Source of the DNA: a virus
Lineage: Duplodnaviria; Heunggongvirae; Uroviricota; Caudoviricetes
IMG/VR virus record: IMGVR_UViG_2541047766_000003
Length of the DNA stretch: 42,126 nucleotides
Direction: 5' to 3' (one strand)
Below are positions 1-37,161 of this stretch, piece after piece (position 1 is the first letter of the stretch; each line of letters opens with the position of its first letter). A program made the translations under genes and the position numbers. Under the pieces are notes generated by a model. That model searched no databases and had not been told where the DNA came from. It saw only the letters and a program-made list of their open reading frames with translations.

Positions 1-516
1 ATGAAATTTAAAAAATGTCTTCTGCCTGTGGCAACGTTAGCGTCATTCACTCTGGCAGGATGCCAGTCAAATGCTGATGATCATGCCGCCGATGTTTATC
101 AAACCGATCAACTGAATACCAAACAAGAAACTAAAACCGTTAATATTATTTCCATTCTTCCCGCAAAAGTTGCCGTAGACAACTCCCAAAATAAACGAAA
201 CGCACAAGCCTTCGGCGCGCTTATTGGTGCAGTCGCTGGCGGTGTTATTGGCCACAACGTCGGGTCTGGCAGCAATTCCGGAACGACGGCAGGTGCAGTT
301 GGCGGCGGAGCTGTTGGCGCGGCAGCGGGTTCTATGGTGAATGATAAAACCTTAGTGGAAGGTGTTTCTTTAACGTATAAGGAAGGCACCAAAGTGTATA
401 CCTCCACCCAGGTGGGTAAAGAGTGCCAGTTTACGACAGGTTTAGCCGTTGTTATTACCACGACGTATAACGAAACGCGTATTCAGCCAAATACGAAATG
501 TCCTGAAAAGAGCTAA
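1..516 (+). CDS. Glycine-zipper lipoprotein (SlyB/YcfJ-like), probably host-encoded
   Basis: ATG at 1; signal peptide with lipobox LAGC; Gly/Ala-rich glycine-zipper stretch (GALIGAVAGGVIGH...). Family assignment from memory. Confidence 0.6.
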   Translation: MKFKKCLLPVATLASFTLAGCQSNADDHAADVYQTDQLNTKQETKTVNIISILPAKVAVDNSQNKRNAQAFGALIGAVAGGVIGHNVGSGSNSGTTAGAVGGGAVGAAAGSMVNDKTLVEGVSLTYKEGTKVYTSTQVGKECQFTTGLAVVITTTYNETRIQPNTKCPEKS

Positions 517-531
517 TGATCAGGAGGAGTC

Positions 532-1071
532 ATGAAGAAAGTTTTTCTTTGCGCCATCTTAGCCTCCTTAAGCTATCCGGCTATCGCCTCATCATTGCAG
601 GATCAACTCTCTGCTGTCGCAGAAGCGGAACAGCAAGGTAAAAATGAAGAGCAAAGGCAGCATGACGAATGGATCGCGGAGCGCAACAGGGAAATCCAGC
701 AAGAGAAGCAACGTCGCGCAAACGCCCAGGCCGCCGCTAACAAAAGAGCGGCAACGGCAGCGGCAAATAAGAAAGCTCGTCAGGATAAACTGGATGCCGA
801 AGCCACTGCGGACAAAAAACGCGATCAAAGTTATGAAGATGAGCTACGCAGCTTAGAGATTCAGAAACAAAAACTGGCGCTGGCGAAAGAAGAAGCCCGC
901 GTTAAGCGCGAAAACGAATTTATCGATCAGGAACTGAAGCACAAAGCTGCGCAAACCGATGTGGTGCAATCTGAAGCTGACGCAAACAGGAATATGACTG
1001 AGGGCGGTCGCGATCTGATGAAAAGCGTGGGCAAAGCAGAAGAGAACAAATCGGACAGCTGGTTTAACTAA
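532..1071 (+). CDS. Secreted Lys/Glu/Ala-rich coiled-coil protein, unknown function
   Basis: RBS caggagg before ATG; N-terminal signal peptide; highly charged low-complexity body. Confidence 0.5.
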   Translation: MKKVFLCAILASLSYPAIASSLQDQLSAVAEAEQQGKNEEQRQHDEWIAERNREIQQEKQRRANAQAAANKRAATAAANKKARQDKLDAEATADKKRDQSYEDELRSLEIQKQKLALAKEEARVKRENEFIDQELKHKAAQTDVVQSEADANRNMTEGGRDLMKSVGKAEENKSDSWFN

Positions 1072-1149: not shown

Positions 1150-1862
1150 GCCTATAAGGCTCTCTTACCAGCCGCGCCCTAACAGGCGCACACGATCTGA
1201 CATTTGCATCCAACTTCGTTACTTACGGCCCGTAAACGGGCTGCCCGGATAGGGAATCGATAACTGCTCTCCCATTTTATCCTCTTCAAGCTGGTGCTTT
1301 ATGTAATCCTGTATCTTCGCCGTGTTCTTACCCACTGTATCGACGTAGTACCCTCTGCACCAGAACTCCCTGTTCCTGTATTTGAATTTCAAATCACCAA
1401 ACTGCTCGTAAAGCATCAGACTGCTTTTCCCTTTCAGATATCCCATAAACCCGGATACGCTCATTTTAGGCGGGATCTCCACAAGCATATGGATATGATC
1501 TGCACAGCATTCAGCTTCCAGAATCCGTACGCTTTTCCACTCACACAGCTTTCTCAAAATACTGCCTATTGCTCTACGCTTCTCTCTGTAGAACACCTGT
1601 CTTCGGTATTTTGGCGCAAAAACTATGTGATATTTACAGTTCCATCGGGTGTGCGCTAAGCTCTTTTCGTTCCCCATTGGGACCCCCTTTTGATTTCTTG
1701 TTTGACACTTGCAGTTGCCAGACCGCAAGGTGTTTTAACAAATCAAAAGGGGTTTTAATAACTGGCTCAAAGCTGAAAGCTTTCCGGAACCCCCAGCCTA
1801 GCTGGGGGTTTTCTGTGCACAAAAAACCCTCTGTAGTAACAGAGGGTTTTGTTCATTCATAG
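1150..1862 (-). mobile_element. IS200 (IS200/IS605 family) insertion; boundaries approximate
   Basis: Contains a tnpA whose product matches IS200 TnpA as recalled; two hairpins upstream of tnpA (aaaaccctctgt-agtaa-cagagggtttt and cccccagcc-tag-ctggggg) typical of the IS200 left end; size ~0.7 kb. Confidence 0.75.
1219..1677 (-). CDS. tnpA: IS200 transposase TnpA (Y1/HUH type)
   Basis: 152-aa product MGNEKSLAHTRWNCKYHIVFAPKYRRQ... with HxH motif (ADHIHMLVEIPPK); start chosen at internal Met of the track ORF 1219..1728. Confidence 0.9.
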   Translation of the reverse strand: MGNEKSLAHTRWNCKYHIVFAPKYRRQVFYREKRRAIGSILRKLCEWKSVRILEAECCADHIHMLVEIPPKMSVSGFMGYLKGKSSLMLYEQFGDLKFKYRNREFWCRGYYVDTVGKNTAKIQDYIKHQLEEDKMGEQLSIPYPGSPFTGRK

Positions 1863-1976: not shown

Positions 1977-2474
1977 TCAGTGCCACGATTTTTGCTTCTT
2001 CAGTGAATCGTATTGCTGCTCGCAGAATTCCCCTGCGATACGATACTTTTCAGCCTCAGCTGCTGTTGCGTTGTAAACTCGGTTGCTTTCTTCAAGCATG
2101 TCGGCGAGCACACCGATGACCTTGCTGGCTGGCGTGCCAGGGGGGAAAGATCCGGTATAGTGTTCGGCGAGCCGCCTGGTTTTGTCAAGCTCGGCGCGCA
2201 TGCTGTCAGCAGCGGAATTAGCATACTCAGCATCAGCACGCGCCGCATCGATACGGGATTGTGCTTCACGTTCAATTTGTGTTTTCTCCTGCTCACGCTG
2301 TGACCTTAACTTATCATCAGCCTGTTTCTGATCTTCCTTCGCCTGCGCATACCCGGCATCGTACTGACGGATGCCGTGCACATTCCAGGCAACAACTCCT
2401 GATATGACCAGAACAGCAAGCACCGCCATGATAATCAACTGTTTCCGGTATGCTTTTACGAATGCCCAGATCAT
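1977..2474 (-). CDS. Rz: Rz-like i-spanin
   Basis: N-terminal TM helix then charged coiled-coil body; start overlaps endolysin stop; contains an embedded +1-frame lipoprotein ORF. Confidence 0.7.
2000..2248 (-). CDS. Rz1: Rz1-like o-spanin lipoprotein embedded in Rz
   Basis: Embedded ORF with signal peptide and lipobox LLTAC, Pro-rich mature part; start set at internal Met (MRRVLMLSM...). Confidence 0.5.
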   Translation of the reverse strand: MRRVLMLSMLIPLLTACAPSLTKPGGSPNTIPDLSPLARQPARSSVCSPTCLKKATEFTTQQQLRLKSIVSQGNSASSNTIH

Positions 2475-3100
2475 ACCGCCAGCACCTTACTGGCATTGAT
2501 GTATCGCGCGCGCCGGTCGTCGATGCCGTTCCGGCCACCATTGATAATCAGAGTTACACGTGCAATATCGCCGGTATACTTCATGCATCCTTTGCTGGCA
2601 AAGAACCACGCCGCGCTACGAGCCGCGTATTCGTCCTGCGCCAGCAGTTCAGGACTCTCCAGCAGGTCAACCTTAAGACCGTTTCCACAGTCACGATAGT
2701 TATTCAAACCGGTAACCTGGATAAGCCCGCGCCCACGGTAGTTCCAGCCATCACCAGGGGCATTGTTCCCCATGCGTTTGCTGTACACCAGATTGGCAAT
2801 CGCTCTCTGGCGCTCAAGTGGCAATGGTGGTTCGCCTGCACGTCGCCCCAATGCGTTGGCCTGTCCCTGAGTGAGACGCCCAGCCCGAACAAAGTTAGCC
2901 AGTCCGCTGACGCTGTAGTTGAAATTCTCCTGCAACCGGGTGAAGCCTCCAGACTCATGCCCGACCTGAGCAATAAACATAGCCTGATCTTCTGGTTTGC
3001 TGATACCAAACTCTTTCATCGCAGAAGTTATATGCGAGAACCAGCGTGCGGCCAGTGCCTCGCTGATACCAGCAGCTCGCTGGAATTGTTTAATCTCCAT
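2471..3100 (-). CDS. Endolysin, glycoside hydrolase family 19 (chitinase-like)
   Basis: [20 protein letters not shown]...[12 protein letters not shown]...[12 protein letters not shown]; resembles the SPN1S/epsilon15-type endolysin as recalled. Confidence 0.9.
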
Positions 3101-3398
3101 GTTTAGACCTCGATACTTTGAAAATTTGAACGACGTTACCGCGCGTTTTAATAACCGCAGCTAGCATGACAGCGTTGATAATGACCTCAGATAAATCCAC
3201 AGCCATTGGCGTACGTAACCAGATTGCATAGGCGACACGAACAGGAATACTGGCCGCAGCAACAATCAGGAAATAAGCAAGCCATCCTCCCCACCTTCGG
3301 TGTTGAGAGCCGTTACGCCGGAATGTGACAACGCGAATTGCTATGCCAGTGCAAATAACTGCATTGGTGATAAGCAAAAAAAACTCATGCGTTACCAT
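3090..3398 (-). CDS. Putative holin (small multi-TM protein)
   Basis: Hydrophobic segments, charged C-terminus, immediately upstream of the endolysin. Confidence 0.55.
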
Positions 3399-3798
3399 CG
3401 TCTTTTCTCCCCGGAATTAACTCGCGTGGATTATCGGAACGGTGATAGAGCCATATACCAATACGCACAGCGACAATTGCTGACACGAATGCGCCTGCAG
3501 AGAAAACAATCCCTTCTTCAAAAGAGTCCTGCGTGATGGTAGGGATCAGGCTGGCTATGCCGATAAGAATTGATGCTGCTGGTTTGTAAAAGAGAAGGCC
3601 GCAAAGAAAGCTGAGCATCGACAGGAGCACCCGGCGACGGATGGGGTACTCTACTGCAGAGGTAACAAAAATTACCGCTCCAGCCAAAGCACCCAAAGCA
3701 ACCTCAGGAGGAACTCCTGCTATCACCGCCGCCAGAGAACTCATGCTAAGCCACTGATTTAAAGTTTCACTGGTTAGTTGAGCTGACATGTTTTCCAC
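3385..3798 (-). CDS. Putative holin/antiholin-like membrane protein
   Basis: Several predicted TM helices; first gene of the lysis cassette. Confidence 0.5.
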   Translation of the reverse strand: MENMSAQLTSETLNQWLSMSSLAAVIAGVPPEVALGALAGAVIFVTSAVEYPIRRRVLLSMLSFLCGLLFYKPAASILIGIASLIPTITQDSFEEGIVFSAGAFVSAIVAVRIGIWLYHRSDNPRELIPGRKDDGNA

Positions 3799-3991
3799 CG
3801 TTTATATGCATAACAACCTCCTGAACAGTAAAGCATTACGCATAATAAACCATTTATGGTTTTTTGTTACTTTAACATCGTCAATTCCCTGTTTTTCATG
3901 CCGAGAATAAAGCTCACCTTTTACATGACTCTGAAGAAACAAACAGTGAAGAGCAGGTTGAATACCGCACCATTTAATGGCGCGGTAGCAG

Positions 3992-4288
3992 TCAAATAGA
4001 GAAATAAACACAAAAACAAAAAACAACAGGAACAGCAAAATCCAACAGACTTCCCACATCCCACACGCGTGGATCAAAACCTCCCCACCACGGCATGTTG
4101 ATACGTTTCCCTTTCCCAAACTTTTCTATCCAGCGATATTCTGCCTGGGTGTGTTCACGCGCAATGAAGAACGTACAACCGGCTATCGCACCGTAAGCCC
4201 AGTTTCCGGTAAAAATACCAACCAGTACCTGAGCCGCAAAAGCGCAAAGCGAGTGAAGAAATGGAGTGACATCAATGCTCTTAATCAT
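3992..4288 (-). CDS. Small membrane protein of unknown function downstream of tailspike
   Basis: ATG overlaps tailspike stop (ATGA); 2-3 hydrophobic helices. Confidence 0.4.
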   Translation of the reverse strand: MIKSIDVTPFLHSLCAFAAQVLVGIFTGNWAYGAIAGCTFFIAREHTQAEYRWIEKFGKGKRINMPWWGGFDPRVWDVGSLLDFAVPVVFCFCVYFSI

Positions 4289-6474
4289 GAAACTTCCCCA
4301 TTGGTTGAAAATATGGCTCCTCCAACGCCAAGTGTATTTCGTGTTGTGCTCAACCTCAGAGGGCTGGAGTCAGAATTAGAATATCCTGTAGCAGAAATAA
4401 AAGATCCTCCACTAATAGTCAACTGCGGAACATCGGCTATATCTGAATAAGTTCTGTCAGCAACAGTATTATTTATAGCCACATATGATCCAAAAAAACT
4501 TCTTATTGTTTGGTTTTTAACTTTACTTCCTTCAATGGTTATCCTACTACCACAGTCGGCAATAAATCCTGAATCTGCATCCAGCGTTGCATTCATAAAA
4601 GAAGCTTCAGATCTCTCTACATCAATCCATCTAATATCTTTTGTGGGATTTGCACCAAATACATGACAAATATTAGAGTTAAACCTTACACCATCTTGGA
4701 GGTGCATTAATTTTTTTATATCTGTACCCCATAGCCTTGGAAAATTAACAGATGCTCCTGCATGGCAATCAAATCCCAGCTCAGCCCCTGAGATATCTAC
4801 AGCCTTTCCTGAAATAACAGCACCAGTGTCTGCATTAACGGCTGTTCCACAATTGCGCATATCATTACCAGCAACATCAACGCAACCCGCACCATCAATA
4901 CGCACACCAAGTGCACATCCATAAAAACCTTTTTCAATATTTGGTTCAAGGACTTTACCACTTGTTTCTGCATCACTTTCTTCAACGTCATGTCGTCTTG
5001 CATCAACATATGCTGTATGAATGCAGGTTAATCCACGATATGAGCAATGTATAGTTTTATGGTCGCGTATATTAACATTTGAACCATCTCTTACATTCCA
5101 TCCTATATAACAATAGCTTGCACTTGACCCCTGAAAATCTGCTTTAACATTATAAATACAATTAACTGACGCAACCGTACTCTCTGTGCACCGTTCAAAC
5201 TTGCTTACAGGCATTGATGCCTTGACATTATTTACCAGTTGCAGGGAAGAGTATCTGCTATAAGAAAAATCACATACGTAATACCCTTCTGGCATATATG
5301 CAGCAACACTTTCCTCATCAGGAGCACATCCGGTATGATATGCACTAATTTTTGCACCAAAACTACCATGAATTCCAACGTAGAACTTTCGAGCACCTGA
5401 ATACGGATAGAAATTAAGTTCAGCTTTTTGAGTTACAATAAATGCACAAACATCGCTATCATCTCTATTTTCTTCGATCTGAATAGCAAATACAGGACTT
5501 TTTGCTGCATCGCAAATGTAAAATAAATACTTGTATTCGTAATACGTTCTAACGATTTTAGTAAACAAACGAGTGTCAGAGAAAACCACTGAGTCTTCTG
5601 ATGTTATTTTAATCCAAGACAAATCAACACCTGAACTGAATTCAATTTGATAGTTGATAATATGCCCGGTCTTAATTCTTATTTCGCAGAAAGCATTACC
5701 ACCATCCCACATAGGCCTCATTGACTGGGCTGCAATGATTGCATCTTTGAGTGTAGGGTAATCACCCCATTCGCCAACAGTAATAACAAAAGTATAATAT
5801 GAGTTAAAAACAGCGGCATTTTTGCCTTTGGATATCAACTCCTTAATCATAAAAATATTATCTTCGTAATCACAAGGAGAAATTATATCCCTCATTTTGC
5901 TTTGAAATGTTCGTTGTCTTGCCCCGCTTCCTGACGGTATAAACCAACCAAAACCACCAACAACCCCGGCGATTGCAGCATCGACATAATTACGCATTGA
6001 GCGATTATTTACAGCGTCCTGCTCAAATGATGGATCTGCAAGGTTAGAAATTTTGTTTTGCTTTGCATCGTAATATTTTGCAAGCAAAGATGGTTTCATC
6101 AATGCACGTCTGAACCACCCAAAACATCGCTGGATCAGCATCGTCAGGTAGTCAAATGCATCTTCATGAACTTCGGGGAAAAATTTTCCCTGATTGCGAA
6201 GATCAGTCTCCTGCACCACATCAAGCACACGCTCTATCGTAATTCGCCAGCCAGCAGCAAGCGGCGACGGGAGAACCACTTCACCGCCACTATAAGTGCC
6301 CGCTCCAGTTACCTTATAACCGGTATCCAGAACCAATTCTGTTACGTTCCCGTTCAGGTCAGACACCTGAACAACCAGGTCGGTTTTTTTGAAAATACGG
6401 AAGGTATACGGAAATGATGTCGTAGCTCCGTTACCAGTGTATTCGTTGTGGTCAACTTCGGTTGAGACCGTCAT
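4285..6474 (-). CDS. Tailspike / tail fiber with conserved N-terminal adaptor domain and beta-helix-like C-terminal receptor-binding domain
   Basis: N-terminus MTVSTEVDHNEYTGNGATTSFPYTFRIF... typical of enterobacterial tailspike N-domains; C-terminal two thirds Gly/Asn/Ser/Cys-rich repetitive and AT-rich. Confidence 0.85.
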   Translation of the reverse strand: MTVSTEVDHNEYTGNGATTSFPYTFRIFKKTDLVVQVSDLNGNVTELVLDTGYKVTGAGTYSGGEVVLPSPLAAGWRITIERVLDVVQETDLRNQGKFFPEVHEDAFDYLTMLIQRCFGWFRRALMKPSLLAKYYDAKQNKISNLADPSFEQDAVNNRSMRNYVDAAIAGVVGGFGWFIPSGSGARQRTFQSKMRDIISPCDYEDNIFMIKELISKGKNAAVFNSYYTFVITVGEWGDYPTLKDAIIAAQSMRPMWDGGNAFCEIRIKTGHIINYQIEFSSGVDLSWIKITSEDSVVFSDTRLFTKIVRTYYEYKYLFYICDAAKSPVFAIQIEENRDDSDVCAFIVTQKAELNFYPYSGARKFYVGIHGSFGAKISAYHTGCAPDEESVAAYMPEGYYVCDFSYSRYSSLQLVNNVKASMPVSKFERCTESTVASVNCIYNVKADFQGSSASYCYIGWNVRDGSNVNIRDHKTIHCSYRGLTCIHTAYVDARRHDVEESDAETSGKVLEPNIEKGFYGCALGVRIDGAGCVDVAGNDMRNCGTAVNADTGAVISGKAVDISGAELGFDCHAGASVNFPRLWGTDIKKLMHLQDGVRFNSNICHVFGANPTKDIRWIDVERSEASFMNATLDADSGFIADCGSRITIEGSKVKNQTIRSFFGSYVAINNTVADRTYSDIADVPQLTISGGSFISATGYSNSDSSPLRLSTTRNTLGVGGAIFSTNGEVS

Positions 6475-6578
6475 GTTAAATCTCCAGATAGTCGCAGCAC
6501 CCGTTGCGCCGCATATCTGGTTATTCTATTACCTGAAAAACCACATATGGATAGAAAGACTATAAATACCAATAGATA

Positions 6579-6593
6579 TTACCTTTCGGGTAA
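6579..6593. promoter_or_regulatory. Operator-like palindrome TTACC-TTTCG-GGTAA
   Basis: Same 15-bp palindrome family as the OL/OR sites; lies in the divergent tailspike / small-gene intergenic region. Confidence 0.5.
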
Positions 6594-6630
6594 TTTGCAA
6601 AACGTGCTGGATAGCAAACAAATTATTTGA

Positions 6631-6650
6631 TACTGTATAAATATACAGTT
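6631..6650 (+). promoter_or_regulatory. LexA (SOS) box
   Basis: tACTGTataaatatACAGtt = CTGT-N8-ACAG with AT-rich spacer, 20 bp before the ATG at 6670. Confidence 0.7.
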
Positions 6651-6669
6651 ATTGCATGGAGAAGATAAG

Positions 6670-6927
6670 ATGCAGCAGTATCACTATCCACTGGAAGACG
6701 GATTTACCGAAAGGATTCACACGCCGGGAGGCGTCAGGTCACTGGTGGAGGGATCGCACTTGATGAAATTACTCCGGGATCTCGATAAGGATGGATTTAA
6801 TGTCGATGGCCCACTTGCCGAACTGACTGCACTGATTAACTACGTCACCAGCTCACAGATGTCTATGCAGGATCTGCAAACACATCTCGACTATTGTGCC
6901 GAACAATTACGAAAACAAACCACATAA
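6670..6927 (+). CDS. Small protein (85 aa) homologous to C-terminal domain of the Bro-N protein; candidate SOS-controlled antirepressor
   Basis: RBS ggagaag then ATG; ...LMKLLRDLDKDGFNVDGPLAELT...DLQTH aligns with the C-terminus of 8075..8770 (...LMNLLNQLQDDGHDVSGAAAELT...DIQTH). Confidence 0.6.
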   Translation: MQQYHYPLEDGFTERIHTPGGVRSLVEGSHLMKLLRDLDKDGFNVDGPLAELTALINYVTSSQMSMQDLQTHLDYCAEQLRKQTT

Positions 6928-6932
6928 AGAAA

Positions 6933-6950
6933 AGGCCGCTAGAGCGGCCT
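6933..6950. terminator. Hairpin terminator between convergent genes
   Basis: aggccgc-taga-gcggcct; T-run follows on the minus strand. Confidence 0.5.
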
Positions 6951-7677
6951 ATCGTTTCGCTTTGTGCTCGTCCCAGCACGTTTTACACCATGCCATTAAG
7001 CCATCCGCATTTTGATTATTAGGGTAAAAGCTGGTTCGTTTTCTGCGGACATTACAAATTGGGCACCACTTCATATGACGTGTATTCTTTGGGCCATCGA
7101 GACACCTTGCACACCACTTAGTCAATCCATCTGGATTTTTTGACGATTTCCTGAACTTCTCATACGGAAGGTTTATTCTGCATCGCAAGCACTGCTTGCT
7201 ACCACTTGAAACTCTGTTAGCTGATTCTTCTTTTGGCGGCGATACAGAAGGTATTCTTGCTGGCTCTGATACTGCCTGAGGTGCTTTTTTAGATGACTGA
7301 GACGATATGTCATCACCAGGGAATCTTCCATGATATGCCGGAGGCGTTGACACTCCAGGTGGAAGCTCAGCTGTAAACGGCTTTGGCTGAATCAGTTGCC
7401 TCTCTTTTGCTAACTCCTGCTGTTTATAATATGTCTGGATTACCGCACTATCATAAGCAGGAGGTGCGGAAATATTAGGCGCATTACCTCCAGTTTTTTG
7501 AAACTGAGTAGAGGTGTGTTCTATCACCTGTGTACGATTAATCGTTATCTCCCCATCTTCGGTCTTTATCGTTTTGTTATGATTAACGACCGTACGATCA
7601 GAGATCTTAGTCTTGTTCTGGTTGATAACGTAAATAATCACCGCAACCACACCAACAACTATCCAGAAAACTTCCAT
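6949..7677 (-). CDS. Membrane-anchored protein with two PPAY motifs and a tandem C-terminal zinc ribbon
   Basis: N-terminal TM helix (VFWIVVGVVAVIIYVI); APPAY and TPPAY; four CxxC pairs (CLRC, CARC, CPIC, CKTC). Confidence 0.6.
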   Translation of the reverse strand: MEVFWIVVGVVAVIIYVINQNKTKISDRTVVNHNKTIKTEDGEITINRTQVIEHTSTQFQKTGGNAPNISAPPAYDSAVIQTYYKQQELAKERQLIQPKPFTAELPPGVSTPPAYHGRFPGDDISSQSSKKAPQAVSEPARIPSVSPPKEESANRVSSGSKQCLRCRINLPYEKFRKSSKNPDGLTKWCARCLDGPKNTRHMKWCPICNVRRKRTSFYPNNQNADGLMAWCKTCWDEHKAKR

Positions 7678-7697
7678 TGCTTTTCCTCACAATAACA

Positions 7698-7712
7698 TTA
7701 CCTTAAAGGTAA
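7698..7712. promoter_or_regulatory. Operator-like palindrome TTACC-TTAAA-GGTAA overlapping the promoter of 6949..7677
   Basis: 21 bp upstream of the minus-strand start; TTGATC -35-like element upstream on the minus strand. Confidence 0.5.
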
Positions 7713-7790
7713 TATCTTGCTTTCAGGTGATCAAGCGCTAAACGCCACCAACCAAATACGGTTGATTTTTATATACCTCCGCGCTTATCA

Positions 7791-37072: not shown

Positions 37073-37084
37073 TTGCCTATACTA

Positions 37085-37161
37085 TTACCTAATGGGTAAT
37101 TTTTTTAACTCATATCTATTGACATCAAACCAAATACGCATAATTATTACCTAAACGGTAA
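37085..37161 (+). promoter_or_regulatory. OL-like operators and pL-like promoter
   Basis: TTACC-TAATG-GGTAA (37085..37099), TTGACA at 37119..37124, TTACC-TAAAC-GGTAA (37147..37161) overlapping the -10/+1 region. Confidence 0.55.

What the first reader, a model, noticed from the sequence alone, without database searches (positions are those of the whole stretch)
3992..6474. Mosaic tailspike with an AT-rich receptor-binding domain, followed by a small membrane protein
The N-terminal ~120 aa is the conserved adaptor domain; the remainder is compositionally distinct (AT-rich codons, Cys/Asn/Gly-rich), consistent with receptor-domain swapping. The 98-aa membrane protein overlapping its stop codon sits where epsilon15-type phages carry seroconversion functions (recalled); that role is only a guess.
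Basis: partly seen in the sequence, partly recalled or inferred. Interest (0 to 1): 0.45.

Follow-up and report, generated by a model that had tools for sequence, protein, structure and literature searches.

The report
Swapped tailspike module plus companion membrane gene
This is an ordinary modular phage tailspike whose sugar-cutting receptor module was imported from other phages. It is followed by a small, very widespread membrane-protein gene of unknown function that sits directly after receptor-binding genes in many unrelated phages and is probably not a serotype-converting gene.

Summary
On the minus strand, 4285-6474 encodes a 729-aa tailspike. ORF 3992-4288 encodes a 98-aa three-helix membrane protein whose ATG overlaps the tailspike stop codon (ATGA). 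The AT-rich stretch is real: it is the lowest-GC 1.5 kb of the window (0.374 against a mean of 0.489).

The tailspike has three segments:
- aa 1-184: an epsilon15-type adaptor, 92-94% identical to phage phiv142-3.
- aa 185-272: a connector.
- aa 273-729: a right-handed beta-helix, 94-100% identical to the spikes of P22-like phage JEP4 and the 130-kb phage 92CQ.

The whole gene already exists in phage HEMP4, in 11 complete E. coli genomes and in phrog_5662, so this part is ordinary.

The small ORF does occupy the slot where epsilon15 (gp21/gp22) and phiV10 (oac) carry seroconversion genes. However, it is unrelated to them, lies on the tailspike strand, follows a conserved repressor operator, and also occurs in an Ackermannviridae-type phage.

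It belongs to phrog_1443, which has no Pfam, NCBIfam, PADLOC or PDB match. In 18 of the 21 loci I examined it lies directly 3' of a tailspike or tail-fibre gene. It is present in 35% of complete E. coli genomes. Its function is unknown. My best guess is a lytic-cycle envelope or superinfection-exclusion factor.

The parts
4285..6474 (-). Tailspike gene (729 aa plus stop codon)
   Evidence: ORF. phrog_5662 matches full length at 1634 bits. 99.3% DNA identity to phage HEMP4. Present full length in 11 complete E. coli genomes.
5923..6474 (-). aa 1-184: epsilon15/Uetakevirus-type particle-binding (adaptor) domain
   Evidence: 92-94% aa identity to the phiv142-3 spike. DNA homology to phiv142-3 runs from 5939 upward; weaker homology to phiV10 and epsilon15. 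aa 1-202 match solved tailspike Dpo31 (PDB 28lx/8ck1), E 5.9e-32. About 20 PHROG tail families match aa 1-166 only.
5659..5922 (-). aa 185-272: connector/neck segment of a third ancestry
   Evidence: Only 43-46% identical to JEP4 and 92CQ, and 20-40% to phiv142-3. The AF2 model shows short helices and strands ahead of the beta-helix.
4288..5658 (-). aa 273-729: right-handed parallel beta-helix receptor-binding / putative depolymerase module; the AT-rich island
3992..4288 (-). 98-aa three-helix inner-membrane protein, phrog_1443 family; companion gene of receptor-binding proteins
   Evidence: ATGA overlap with the tailspike stop. phrog_1443 E 2.5e-55. No Pfam, NCBIfam, PADLOC or PDB match. AF2 pLDDT 91.8. 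Nearly invariant H12, R44, E45, Q48, A49, E50, W76, P87 across 102 distant members. dN/dS 0.17-0.2.
3963..3987 (-). 11-bp stem-loop immediately after the small ORF's stop codon (3' end of the tailspike/small-ORF unit; no U-tract)
   Evidence: RNA fold: centroid -17.4 kcal/mol, z -2.8 against shuffles. No hairpin lies between the tailspike and the small ORF.
6578..6594 (.). Palindrome ATTACC-N5-GGTAAT upstream of the tailspike start; counterpart of the site annotated as repressor-binding in the epsilon15 record
   Evidence: Conserved in epsilon15, phiV10 and phiv142-3. Three copies in the window against 0 expected.

Best explanation
SHOWN.
- The locus is the distal end of the virion-gene cluster of an epsilon15/phiV10-like (Uetakevirus) temperate phage.
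- The tailspike has three modules: a genus-typical N-terminal adaptor (aa 1-184), a connector (aa 185-272), and a beta-helix receptor-binding module (aa 273-729).
- That beta-helix module circulates horizontally among epsilon15-like, P22-like, P2/HP1-like, Ackermannviridae-type (PF18668 N-terminus) and other phages. Its GC (0.37) matches the 92CQ locus rather than the temperate backbone.
- The next gene, start/stop-overlapped with the spike and followed rather than preceded by a hairpin, encodes a member of a large uncharacterised family (phrog_1443).
- In 18 of the 21 loci I examined this family lies directly 3' of a tailspike or tail-fibre gene on the same strand.
- Both recombination breakpoints on that side fall at or inside it (4276 against phiv142-3, 4029 against JEP4). 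It therefore also serves as the conserved 3' flank between which receptor modules are exchanged.

INFERRED.
- The spike binds and cleaves a surface polysaccharide. The substrate is unknown.
- The small protein is made together with the spike once the prophage repressor is gone, and inserts in the inner membrane with its conserved basic loop (R44-E45-x-x-Q48-A49-E50-Y-R ... W76) facing the cytoplasm.
- It acts on a conserved host envelope or uptake step and does not recognise a particular O-antigen.
- My preferred mechanism is superinfection exclusion or protection of progeny, comparable in role to the small membrane exclusion proteins that, from memory, other phages encode beside their receptor-binding genes (T5 Llp, phi80/T1 Cor, HK97 gp15, P22 SieA). 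It would not be an O-antigen-modifying enzyme.
For: Anatomy and mosaicism. Beta-helix fold. Promiscuous fusion of the receptor module to other adaptor types. GC match to the 92CQ locus.

One transcription/translation unit: ATGA overlap with a GGGGA ribosome-binding site. There is no hairpin or promoter-like site on the minus strand between the two genes, and a hairpin follows the small ORF.

Repressor control: the ATTACC-N5-GGTAAT site annotated as repressor-binding in the epsilon15 record is conserved upstream of the spike. It is over-represented in the window, 3 copies against 0 expected.

Family synteny. The small ORF lies directly 3' of a receptor-binding gene, on the same strand, in 18 loci:
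- this window, JEP4 and phiv142-3;
- phage 21 and PhiR55_1;
- metagenome loci L009 and L010, and a Comamonas prophage;
- Leclercia and Aeromonas P2/HP1-like prophages and the Ackermannviridae-type contig L016;
- the Qin prophage of E. coli B;
- four randomly sampled E. coli loci, two of them on plasmid records;
- L019 and L020.

The gene is real and constrained: 447 cluster representatives, dN/dS 0.17-0.2, and an invariant core from Comamonas to E. coli.

Topology: 5.4 K+R in the 34-aa loop against about 0.1 in the TM1-TM2 turn.

Breakpoints at or inside the small ORF.
Against: No functional evidence exists for the small protein.
- Fold searches gave only generic helical-bundle matches. No profile or PDB link was found.
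- Exclusion proteins are usually expressed from the prophage or early in infection. Here the gene looks repressor-controlled and coupled to a structural gene.
- A protein 60-90% identical in podo-, sipho- and myoviruses cannot be tuned to one DNA-ejection machine, so a classical Sie mechanism aimed at its own phage type is unlikely.
- Nearly invariant H12, E45 and D83 (82%), which by their positions along the predicted helices should lie near the cytoplasmic membrane interface, could instead mark a small membrane enzyme or a lipid-binding site.
- In three distant Aeromonas phage loci the linkage to a receptor-binding gene is loose or unclear.
- The repressor-site argument rests on an annotation in the epsilon15 record, not on an experiment here.
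Confidence: 0.4

Rival explanations
1. One reading: the 98-aa protein is a lysogenic seroconversion factor. It would alter the host O-antigen, for example by inhibiting or redirecting an O-antigen polymerase as epsilon15 gp22 does, so that lysogens resist the phage's own tailspike.
For: It occupies exactly the slot that holds gp21/gp22 in epsilon15 and oac in phiV10. In JEP4 it lies between the tailspike and int, where from memory P22 and Sf6 carry gtrABC and oac. It is a small multi-helix inner-membrane protein, like gp22.
Against: No similarity to gp22 and no match to any Pfam, NCBIfam or PADLOC model. It is co-directional and overlapped with the spike, whereas the known converters are antisense. 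A conserved repressor operator lies upstream of the unit. A member occurs in an Ackermannviridae-type phage contig. Nearly the same protein follows unrelated receptor-binding proteins (GH28-type spike, lambdoid side fibres, S74 fibres) in hosts of many serotypes and genera, so it cannot recognise a serotype-specific Wzy or O-unit.
Confidence: 0.1
2. The small protein is an assembly or maturation factor for receptor-binding proteins, filling the position that tail-fibre assembly chaperones (Tfa) normally occupy. It might, for example, hold or organise nascent trimeric spikes or fibres at the membrane.
For: It is strictly directly 3' of the receptor-binding gene, often with start/stop overlap, just like Tfa genes. 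The lambdoid variants that carry it show no intact tfa after the distal fibre gene. The conserved loop is predicted to face the cytoplasm, where spikes fold.
Against: It is an integral membrane protein with no match to any chaperone family. As far as I know, beta-helix tailspikes and S74-containing fibres fold without a separate chaperone. Phage 92CQ carries a 94-99% identical beta-helix module without this gene. One conserved protein serves structurally unrelated receptor-binding proteins.
Confidence: 0.12
3. The small protein is a lysis-module accessory (holin, antiholin or lysis-timing factor), since in this window it directly precedes the gp23-like protein, holin, endolysin and Rz genes.
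For: In this window it is adjacent to PF16931 and PF05449 holin-family genes. It is a three-helix membrane protein. One of 102 distant members gave a weak PF16931 match, E 0.0036.
Against: In the P22-like, lambdoid and P2-like loci and on the Ackermannviridae-type contig it follows the receptor-binding gene and no lysis gene was seen beside it. epsilon15 and phiV10 have the same lysis cassette without it. It ends inside the last helix, without the charged C-terminal tail that I recall as typical of holins.
Confidence: 0.08
4. The small ORF matters mainly as DNA: a conserved homology arm that lets receptor modules be swapped by homologous recombination, with little function of its own.
For: Both 3'-side breakpoints fall at or inside it, at 4276 against phiv142-3 and 4029 against JEP4. 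The same flanks enclose a different (GH28-type) module in many E. coli prophages.
Against: Strong purifying selection on the protein (dN/dS 0.17-0.2, with synonymous sites saturated between genera) and an invariant 14-residue motif. A confident fold prediction. These two roles are not mutually exclusive.
Confidence: 0.05

Closest known systems
Tailspikes of epsilon15-like phages (epsilon15 gp20, phiV10 p25, phiv142-3 Orf6) and solved tailspike Dpo31 (PDB 28lx/8ck1)
   Same: Homologous N-terminal particle-binding domain, with 92-94% aa identity to phiv142-3. Same genome position between the gp19-like gene and the lysis cassette. Same upstream operator.
   Different: From aa 185 on the sequence is unrelated to those spikes, at 20-29% identity in a forced alignment. 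The receptor module comes from a different pool.
Tailspike of P22-like phage JEP4 (QOC67869.1) and tail fibre of the 130-kb phage 92CQ (XVC02409.1)
   Same: The beta-helix module aa 273-729 is 94-100% identical, about 98% at the DNA level. JEP4 also carries the small ORF, 98% identical in DNA through codon 87.
   Different: They have different N-terminal adaptors (P22 head-binding domain PF09008; a short 92CQ N-terminus). 92CQ lacks the small ORF and has an unrelated 81-aa membrane protein downstream.
Seroconversion genes of epsilon15 (gp21 with gp22, the alpha-polymerase inhibitor) and phiV10 (Oac)
   Same: The same slot between the tailspike and the gp23-like/holin genes. gp22 is also a small membrane protein.
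   Different: They lie on the opposite strand, have very low GC (0.26-0.32 against 0.455), and show no sequence similarity. The family here also occurs in an Ackermannviridae-type phage contig and beside many other kinds of receptor-binding protein.
Exclusion proteins encoded beside receptor-binding or tail genes (T5 Llp next to pb5; from my own knowledge also phi80/T1 Cor, HK97 gp15, P22 SieA, T4 Imm)
   Same: A small envelope protein genetically linked to the receptor-binding gene and carried along with it. The T5 case is described in PMC9586334, which I saw only as title and abstract.
   Different: No sequence or fold relationship was shown. Llp and Cor are receptor-specific outer-membrane or lipoproteins. 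This protein is a predicted inner-membrane protein, is not specific to one receptor module, and is apparently co-expressed with a structural gene. No exclusion phenotype has been tested.
PHROG family phrog_1443 (unknown function); phage 21 CPT_21_24 'putative membrane protein'; E. coli B Qin prophage WP_000355603.1
   Same: Direct membership: HMM E 2.5e-55, and 77-78% aa identity to the lambdoid members.
   Different: None in kind. This copy sits in an epsilon15-like podovirus rather than a lambdoid siphovirus.

Membership tests
epsilon15/Uetakevirus-type tailspike | Homologous N-terminal particle-binding domain | tested here: met
   aa 1-184 are 92-94% identical to phiv142-3. PHROG tail families match aa 1-166 or 1-203. 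PDB tailspike Dpo31 matches aa 1-202, E 5.9e-32.
epsilon15/Uetakevirus-type tailspike | C-terminal right-handed parallel beta-helix (pectin-lyase-like) receptor-binding/depolymerase body | tested here: met
epsilon15/Uetakevirus-type tailspike | Polysaccharide-cleaving activity and trimeric assembly on the virion | not testable with these tools
   Needs purified protein and host LPS or capsule. Only a monomer model was made.
Phage seroconversion module (Wzy-like polymerase/Iap, Oac acyltransferase-3, GtrABC) | Homology to a known O-antigen-modifying or polymerase-inhibiting protein | tested here: not met
   No Pfam, NCBIfam or PADLOC match. hhalign against epsilon15 gp22 gives probability 0.1%.
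Phage seroconversion module (Wzy-like polymerase/Iap, Oac acyltransferase-3, GtrABC) | Located in the variable slot next to the tailspike | tested here: met
   Same slot as epsilon15 gp21/gp22 and phiV10 oac.
Phage seroconversion module (Wzy-like polymerase/Iap, Oac acyltransferase-3, GtrABC) | Independent transcription in the lysogen (own promoter, usually antisense to virion genes) | tested here: not met
   Same strand as the spike with ATGA overlap and no predicted promoter between them. Repressor operator upstream of the unit. This is prediction only; no expression data.
Phage seroconversion module (Wzy-like polymerase/Iap, Oac acyltransferase-3, GtrABC) | Changed O-antigen in lysogens | not testable with these tools
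   Needs LPS profiling of lysogen, cured strain and ORF deletion.
phrog_1443 (uncharacterised phage membrane protein) | Full-length match to the family profile | tested here: met
   E 2.5e-55, residues 5-98 on profile positions 1-94 of 97. 428 homologues and 447 cluster representatives share the R-E-x-x-Q-A-E-Y-R ... W core.
Holins | Match to a holin family, conserved adjacency to an endolysin gene, charged C-terminal tail | tested here: not met
   No holin Pfam match for this protein. It is adjacent to lysis genes in this window but not in the P22-like, lambdoid or P2-like loci examined or on the Ackermannviridae-type contig. The protein ends inside helix 3.
Tail-fibre assembly chaperones (Tfa) | Soluble chaperone encoded directly 3' of the fibre gene | tested here: inconclusive
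   The position criterion is met in the loci examined. The protein is an integral membrane protein with no Tfa-family match.
Small membrane superinfection-exclusion proteins (functional class, no single sequence family) | Small envelope protein linked to tail/receptor-binding genes that blocks incoming phage | not testable with these tools
   Size, membrane location (predicted) and linkage are met (and the synteny calls). The exclusion phenotype itself cannot be tested here.

The most novel reading that the evidence does not exclude
phrog_1443 could be a previously unrecognised, near-universal companion of receptor-binding proteins. It would be a small inner-membrane protein, possibly a miniature enzyme or lipid-carrier-binding protein built around the nearly invariant H12/E45/E50 and the well-conserved D83 on the cytoplasmic side. 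Phages of at least six lineages, apparently including virulent ones, would co-express it with glycan-targeting spikes and fibres. Its job would be to shut down or rewire a conserved envelope step, such as display of undecaprenyl-linked glycans or DNA uptake. That would protect progeny or exclude competitors. The same gene doubles as the 3' homology arm for receptor-module exchange.
Probability: 0.25. Interest if true: 0.7.

Novelty: new member of a known kind. Interest (0 to 1): 0.42.

Why it matters
The tailspike is a textbook example of modular receptor-domain exchange and adds little by itself. It may be practically useful that the same beta-helix module sits on JEP4, a phage reported to infect 28 of 38 phylogroup-A ESBL E. 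coli isolates (PMC8425383).

The small ORF is the more useful lead.
- It is a strongly constrained, unannotated gene present in 1918 of 5426 complete E. coli genomes, with a median of two copies, including laboratory E. coli B.
- In the enterobacterial, Comamonas and Aeromonas prophage loci I examined it is always the gene right after the receptor-binding gene.
- If it has an exclusion or envelope-remodelling role, it would affect host-range prediction, phage-cocktail design and the engineering of chimeric spikes. Designs that replace the segment from the adaptor to the end of the spike would keep or lose it.
- It also gives a concrete, conserved landmark for finding receptor-binding genes and their recombination boundaries in prophages.

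Tried and rejected
- Pfam, NCBIfam, PADLOC and PDB sequence searches with the small protein found nothing. Searches with 102 distant members (Pfam) and with their profile (PDB) gave only scattered chance-level matches.
- The profile comparison with epsilon15 gp22 was negative.
- I checked whether Kapi1 'hyp24', a gene between tailspike and integrase that was experimentally shown not to change LPS, belongs to this family. It does not. It is a 34-aa ORF on the opposite strand, so that experiment says nothing here.
- Literature searches for phrog_1443, for WP_000355603 and for small membrane proteins downstream of receptor-binding genes found no description of the family.
- The simple scan found no canonical intrinsic terminator after the small ORF. 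Folding found a stable hairpin without a U-tract.
- The identical length (42,126 bp) of Logan contig L019 and this window is a coincidence. Only the receptor module and the small ORF are similar.
- I did not determine the polysaccharide substrate or the O-types of the lysogens.
Full report
**What is there.**
- On the minus strand, 4285..6474 is a 729-aa ORF and 3992..4288 is a 98-aa ORF.
- The junction reads GAAGTTTCATGATTAAG. The small ORF's ATG overlaps the tailspike's TGA, and a GGGGA motif lies 6 nt upstream.
- Downstream on the same strand come:
  - a gp23-like membrane protein, 3385..3798 (PF16931);
  - a holin, 3090..3398 (PF05449);
  - a GH19 endolysin, 2471..3100;
  - a DUF2514 (PF10721) gene homologous to the ORF annotated as putative endopeptidase in phiv142-3, 1977..2474.
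- The window ends with an integrase.
- Overall it is an epsilon15/phiV10-like (Uetakevirus) phage. The region is 99.3% identical to Escherichia phage HEMP4. It is present full length in 11 complete E. coli genomes.

**Composition.**
- The AT-rich island is real. The lowest-GC 1.5-kb stretch of the whole window starts at 4401 (0.374, against a mean of 0.489 and sd of 0.031).
- GC3 falls from about 0.5 to 0.14-0.36.
- The small ORF is not part of the island (GC 0.455).
- The receptor module's GC equals the ambient GC of the 130-kb phage 92CQ locus (0.364-0.376). This suggests a low-GC phage pool as its source. However, the unrelated receptor module of phiv142-3 is equally AT-rich (0.368), so low GC is general for these modules.

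**The tailspike is a three-part mosaic.**

| Segment | Window coordinates | Closest relatives | Identity |
|---|---|---|---|
| aa 1-184, adaptor | 5923-6474 | phiv142-3 spike | 92-94% |
| aa 185-272, connector | 5659-5922 | JEP4, 92CQ | 43-46% |
| aa 273-729, beta-helix | 4288-5658 | JEP4 (P22-like), 92CQ | 94-100% |

- The adaptor also matches the solved tailspike Dpo31 (E 5.9e-32).
- At the DNA level, homology to phiv142-3 covers 3301-4275 and 5939-6927. Only 4276-5938 has been replaced.
- Homology to JEP4 covers 4029-5657, and homology to 92CQ covers 4272-5657.
- The receptor module belongs to a small family of 24 clusters. Members are fused to P22 head-binding (PF09008), TSP1/Gp66 (PF18668), tail-collar (PF12571) and T7-tail (PF03906) N-termini. 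Some also carry an SGNH esterase domain.
- AlphaFold2 on aa 150-729 gives pLDDT 90.9 and a long beta-helix.
- This is a well-known phenomenon, and the exact protein already forms phrog_5662.

**The slot.**
- epsilon15 carries gp21 (annotated in the record as an O-antigen ligase family protein, ten transmembrane domains) and gp22 (alpha-polymerase inhibitor) between its tailspike and the gp23/holin genes.
- phiV10 carries oac in the same slot. All of these lie on the opposite strand.
- The gene here is different in kind:
  - It is unrelated in sequence.
  - It is co-directional and overlapped with the spike.
  - A stable hairpin follows it (3963-3987, -17.4 kcal/mol, z -2.8), and none separates it from the spike.
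  - Upstream of the spike, the palindrome that the epsilon15 record annotates as a repressor site is conserved (6578-6594). It occurs three times in the window against none expected.
- The unit therefore looks repressed in lysogens. This is an inference from annotation and motif conservation.

**The small protein.**
- It matches phrog_1443, 'unknown function' (E 2.5e-55), and nothing in Pfam, NCBIfam, PADLOC or the PDB.
- Homologue searches found 428 proteins and 447 representatives at 50% clustering. All are about 90-130 aa and unnamed, and none of the representatives listed is longer than 146 aa. The homologues come from Enterobacteriaceae, Aeromonas and Comamonas.
- The core C-x-W-F-I-A-R-E-H-T-Q-A-E-Y-R-W-I ... 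G-K-R-x-N-M-P-W-W-G-G-F-D-x-R-x-W is almost invariant among close members.
- Among 102 distant members, H12, R44, E45, Q48, A49, E50, W76 and P87 remain at 95% or more, and D83 at 82%.
- dN/dS against lambdoid and Ackermannviridae-type copies is 0.17-0.20, and synonymous sites are saturated between genera.
- AlphaFold2 gives pLDDT 91.8, with helices 8-27, 30-57 and 78-97.
- The 34-residue loop carries 5.4 K+R on average, against 0.1 in the helix 1-2 turn. I infer that the loop is cytoplasmic and that both termini are very short.
- Fold searches were uninformative.

**Synteny.** In 18 loci the gene lies directly 3' of a receptor-binding gene on the same strand, often with overlapping start and stop codons:
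- this window;
- P22-like JEP4;
- phiv142-3, after a different, GH28-type spike;
- phage 21 and PhiR55_1, after side tail fibres;
- metagenomic myovirus-type loci L009 and L010, after a 49%-identical homologue of this very receptor module;
- a Comamonas prophage, after a GpJ-like protein;
- P2/HP1-like prophages of Leclercia and Aeromonas;
- an Ackermannviridae-type contig related to Ag3 and pSal-SNUABM-02, between two tailspike genes;
- the Qin prophage of E. coli B;
- four further loci taken at even steps down the ranking of the E. coli hits, two of them on plasmid records;
- two more receptor-module homologues, L019 and L020.

Other points on distribution:
- Only three distant Aeromonas phage copies have a looser or unclear context.
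- Phage 92CQ carries the receptor module without the gene.
- The gene is found in 1918 of 5426 complete E. coli genomes, with a median of two copies.

**Interpretation.**
- The companion is not tied to one receptor chemistry and is not restricted to temperate phages. It is apparently made together with the spike.
- That argues against a classical seroconversion gene and against a holin.
- Its position resembles that of Tfa chaperones, but it is an integral membrane protein. The same receptor module also exists without it in 92CQ.
- My preferred reading, at roughly 30-40%, is a lytic-cycle inner-membrane factor acting on a conserved envelope or uptake step. That would be superinfection exclusion or protection of progeny, analogous in logic to the exclusion genes other phages keep beside their receptor-binding genes.
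- I recall those cases from the literature (T5 Llp/pb5, Cor, HK97 gp15, SieA). I did not test any of them here.
- The nearly invariant H12 and E45, together with D83 (82%), which by their positions along the predicted helices should lie near the cytoplasmic membrane interface, leave open a small enzyme or lipid-carrier-binding function.
- Independently of its function, both 3'-side recombination breakpoints fall at or inside this gene. The adaptor and the companion gene are thus the two conserved flanks between which receptor modules are exchanged.

**Verdict.**
- The mosaic interpretation is supported and is ordinary.
- The seroconversion guess is not supported.
- The residual interest lies in an abundant, strongly constrained, uncharacterised gene family linked to receptor-binding genes, for which I found no description in the searchable literature.

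Noticed in passing
window 6633-6648: A perfect palindrome of the LexA-box type as I recall it (CTGT-N8-ACAG), CTGTATAAATATACAG, sits directly upstream of the gp19-like ORF (6652/6670..6927 +). That ORF is phrog_450 with C-terminal anti-repressor similarity. The site is conserved in epsilon15, phiV10 and phiv142-3. It suggests SOS-controlled expression of an antirepressor-like gene divergent from the tailspike.
   Followed up: partly
window 6578-6594, 7697-7713, 37084-37100: There are three copies of the palindrome ATTACC-N5-GGTAAT, against 0 expected by shuffling. The epsilon15 record annotates the equivalent site upstream of gp20 as repressor-binding. The sites lie upstream of the tailspike, upstream of the 242-aa ORF 6949..7677, and in the 36.4-37.6 kb region.
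   Followed up: partly
window 6949-7677 (-): This 242-aa ORF (phrog_6762, unknown function) begins with a hydrophobic stretch and has two C-terminal Cys-rich repeats that match endonuclease VII, Lar-like and HNH-type PHROG families, with a weak Stc1 match in Pfam. It has its own copy of the operator palindrome.
   Followed up: no
window 1219-1728 (-): An IS200-like Y1 transposase gene (PF01797, E 5e-38) lies between the DUF5384 gene and the DUF2514 gene of the lysis region. It looks like an insertion into the phage genome and may explain part of the length difference from HEMP4 (39,891 bp).
   Followed up: no
window 1-1071 (+): Two likely accessory genes sit next to the integrase end of the window: a glycine-zipper protein with a sub-threshold TraT-like match (1..516) and a DUF5384 protein (532..1071).
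   Followed up: no
L023 1460-3359 and L024 1454-3353 (E. coli chromosomes): In two lambdoid prophages, the gene pair directly after the small ORF on the opposite strand is a SLATT-domain protein plus a reverse transcriptase. This looks to me like a retron or defence-type cargo.
   Followed up: no
L019 (Logan ERR14127513 contig, 42,126 bp): This contig has exactly the same length as the window but is a different phage (P22-type portal, DNA ligase, GH108 lysin). It carries a 58%-identical receptor module, then a family member, then an S74 fibre. The equal length is a coincidence.
   Followed up: yes
L004 4710-4988; L006 3029-3298; L018 6979-7260: In the lambdoid loci a second small conserved ORF of about 90 aa (phrog_1361 in phage 21, unknown function, acidic and soluble-looking) separates the proximal and distal side-fibre genes, upstream of the membrane ORF. 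It may be another fibre accessory gene.
   Followed up: no
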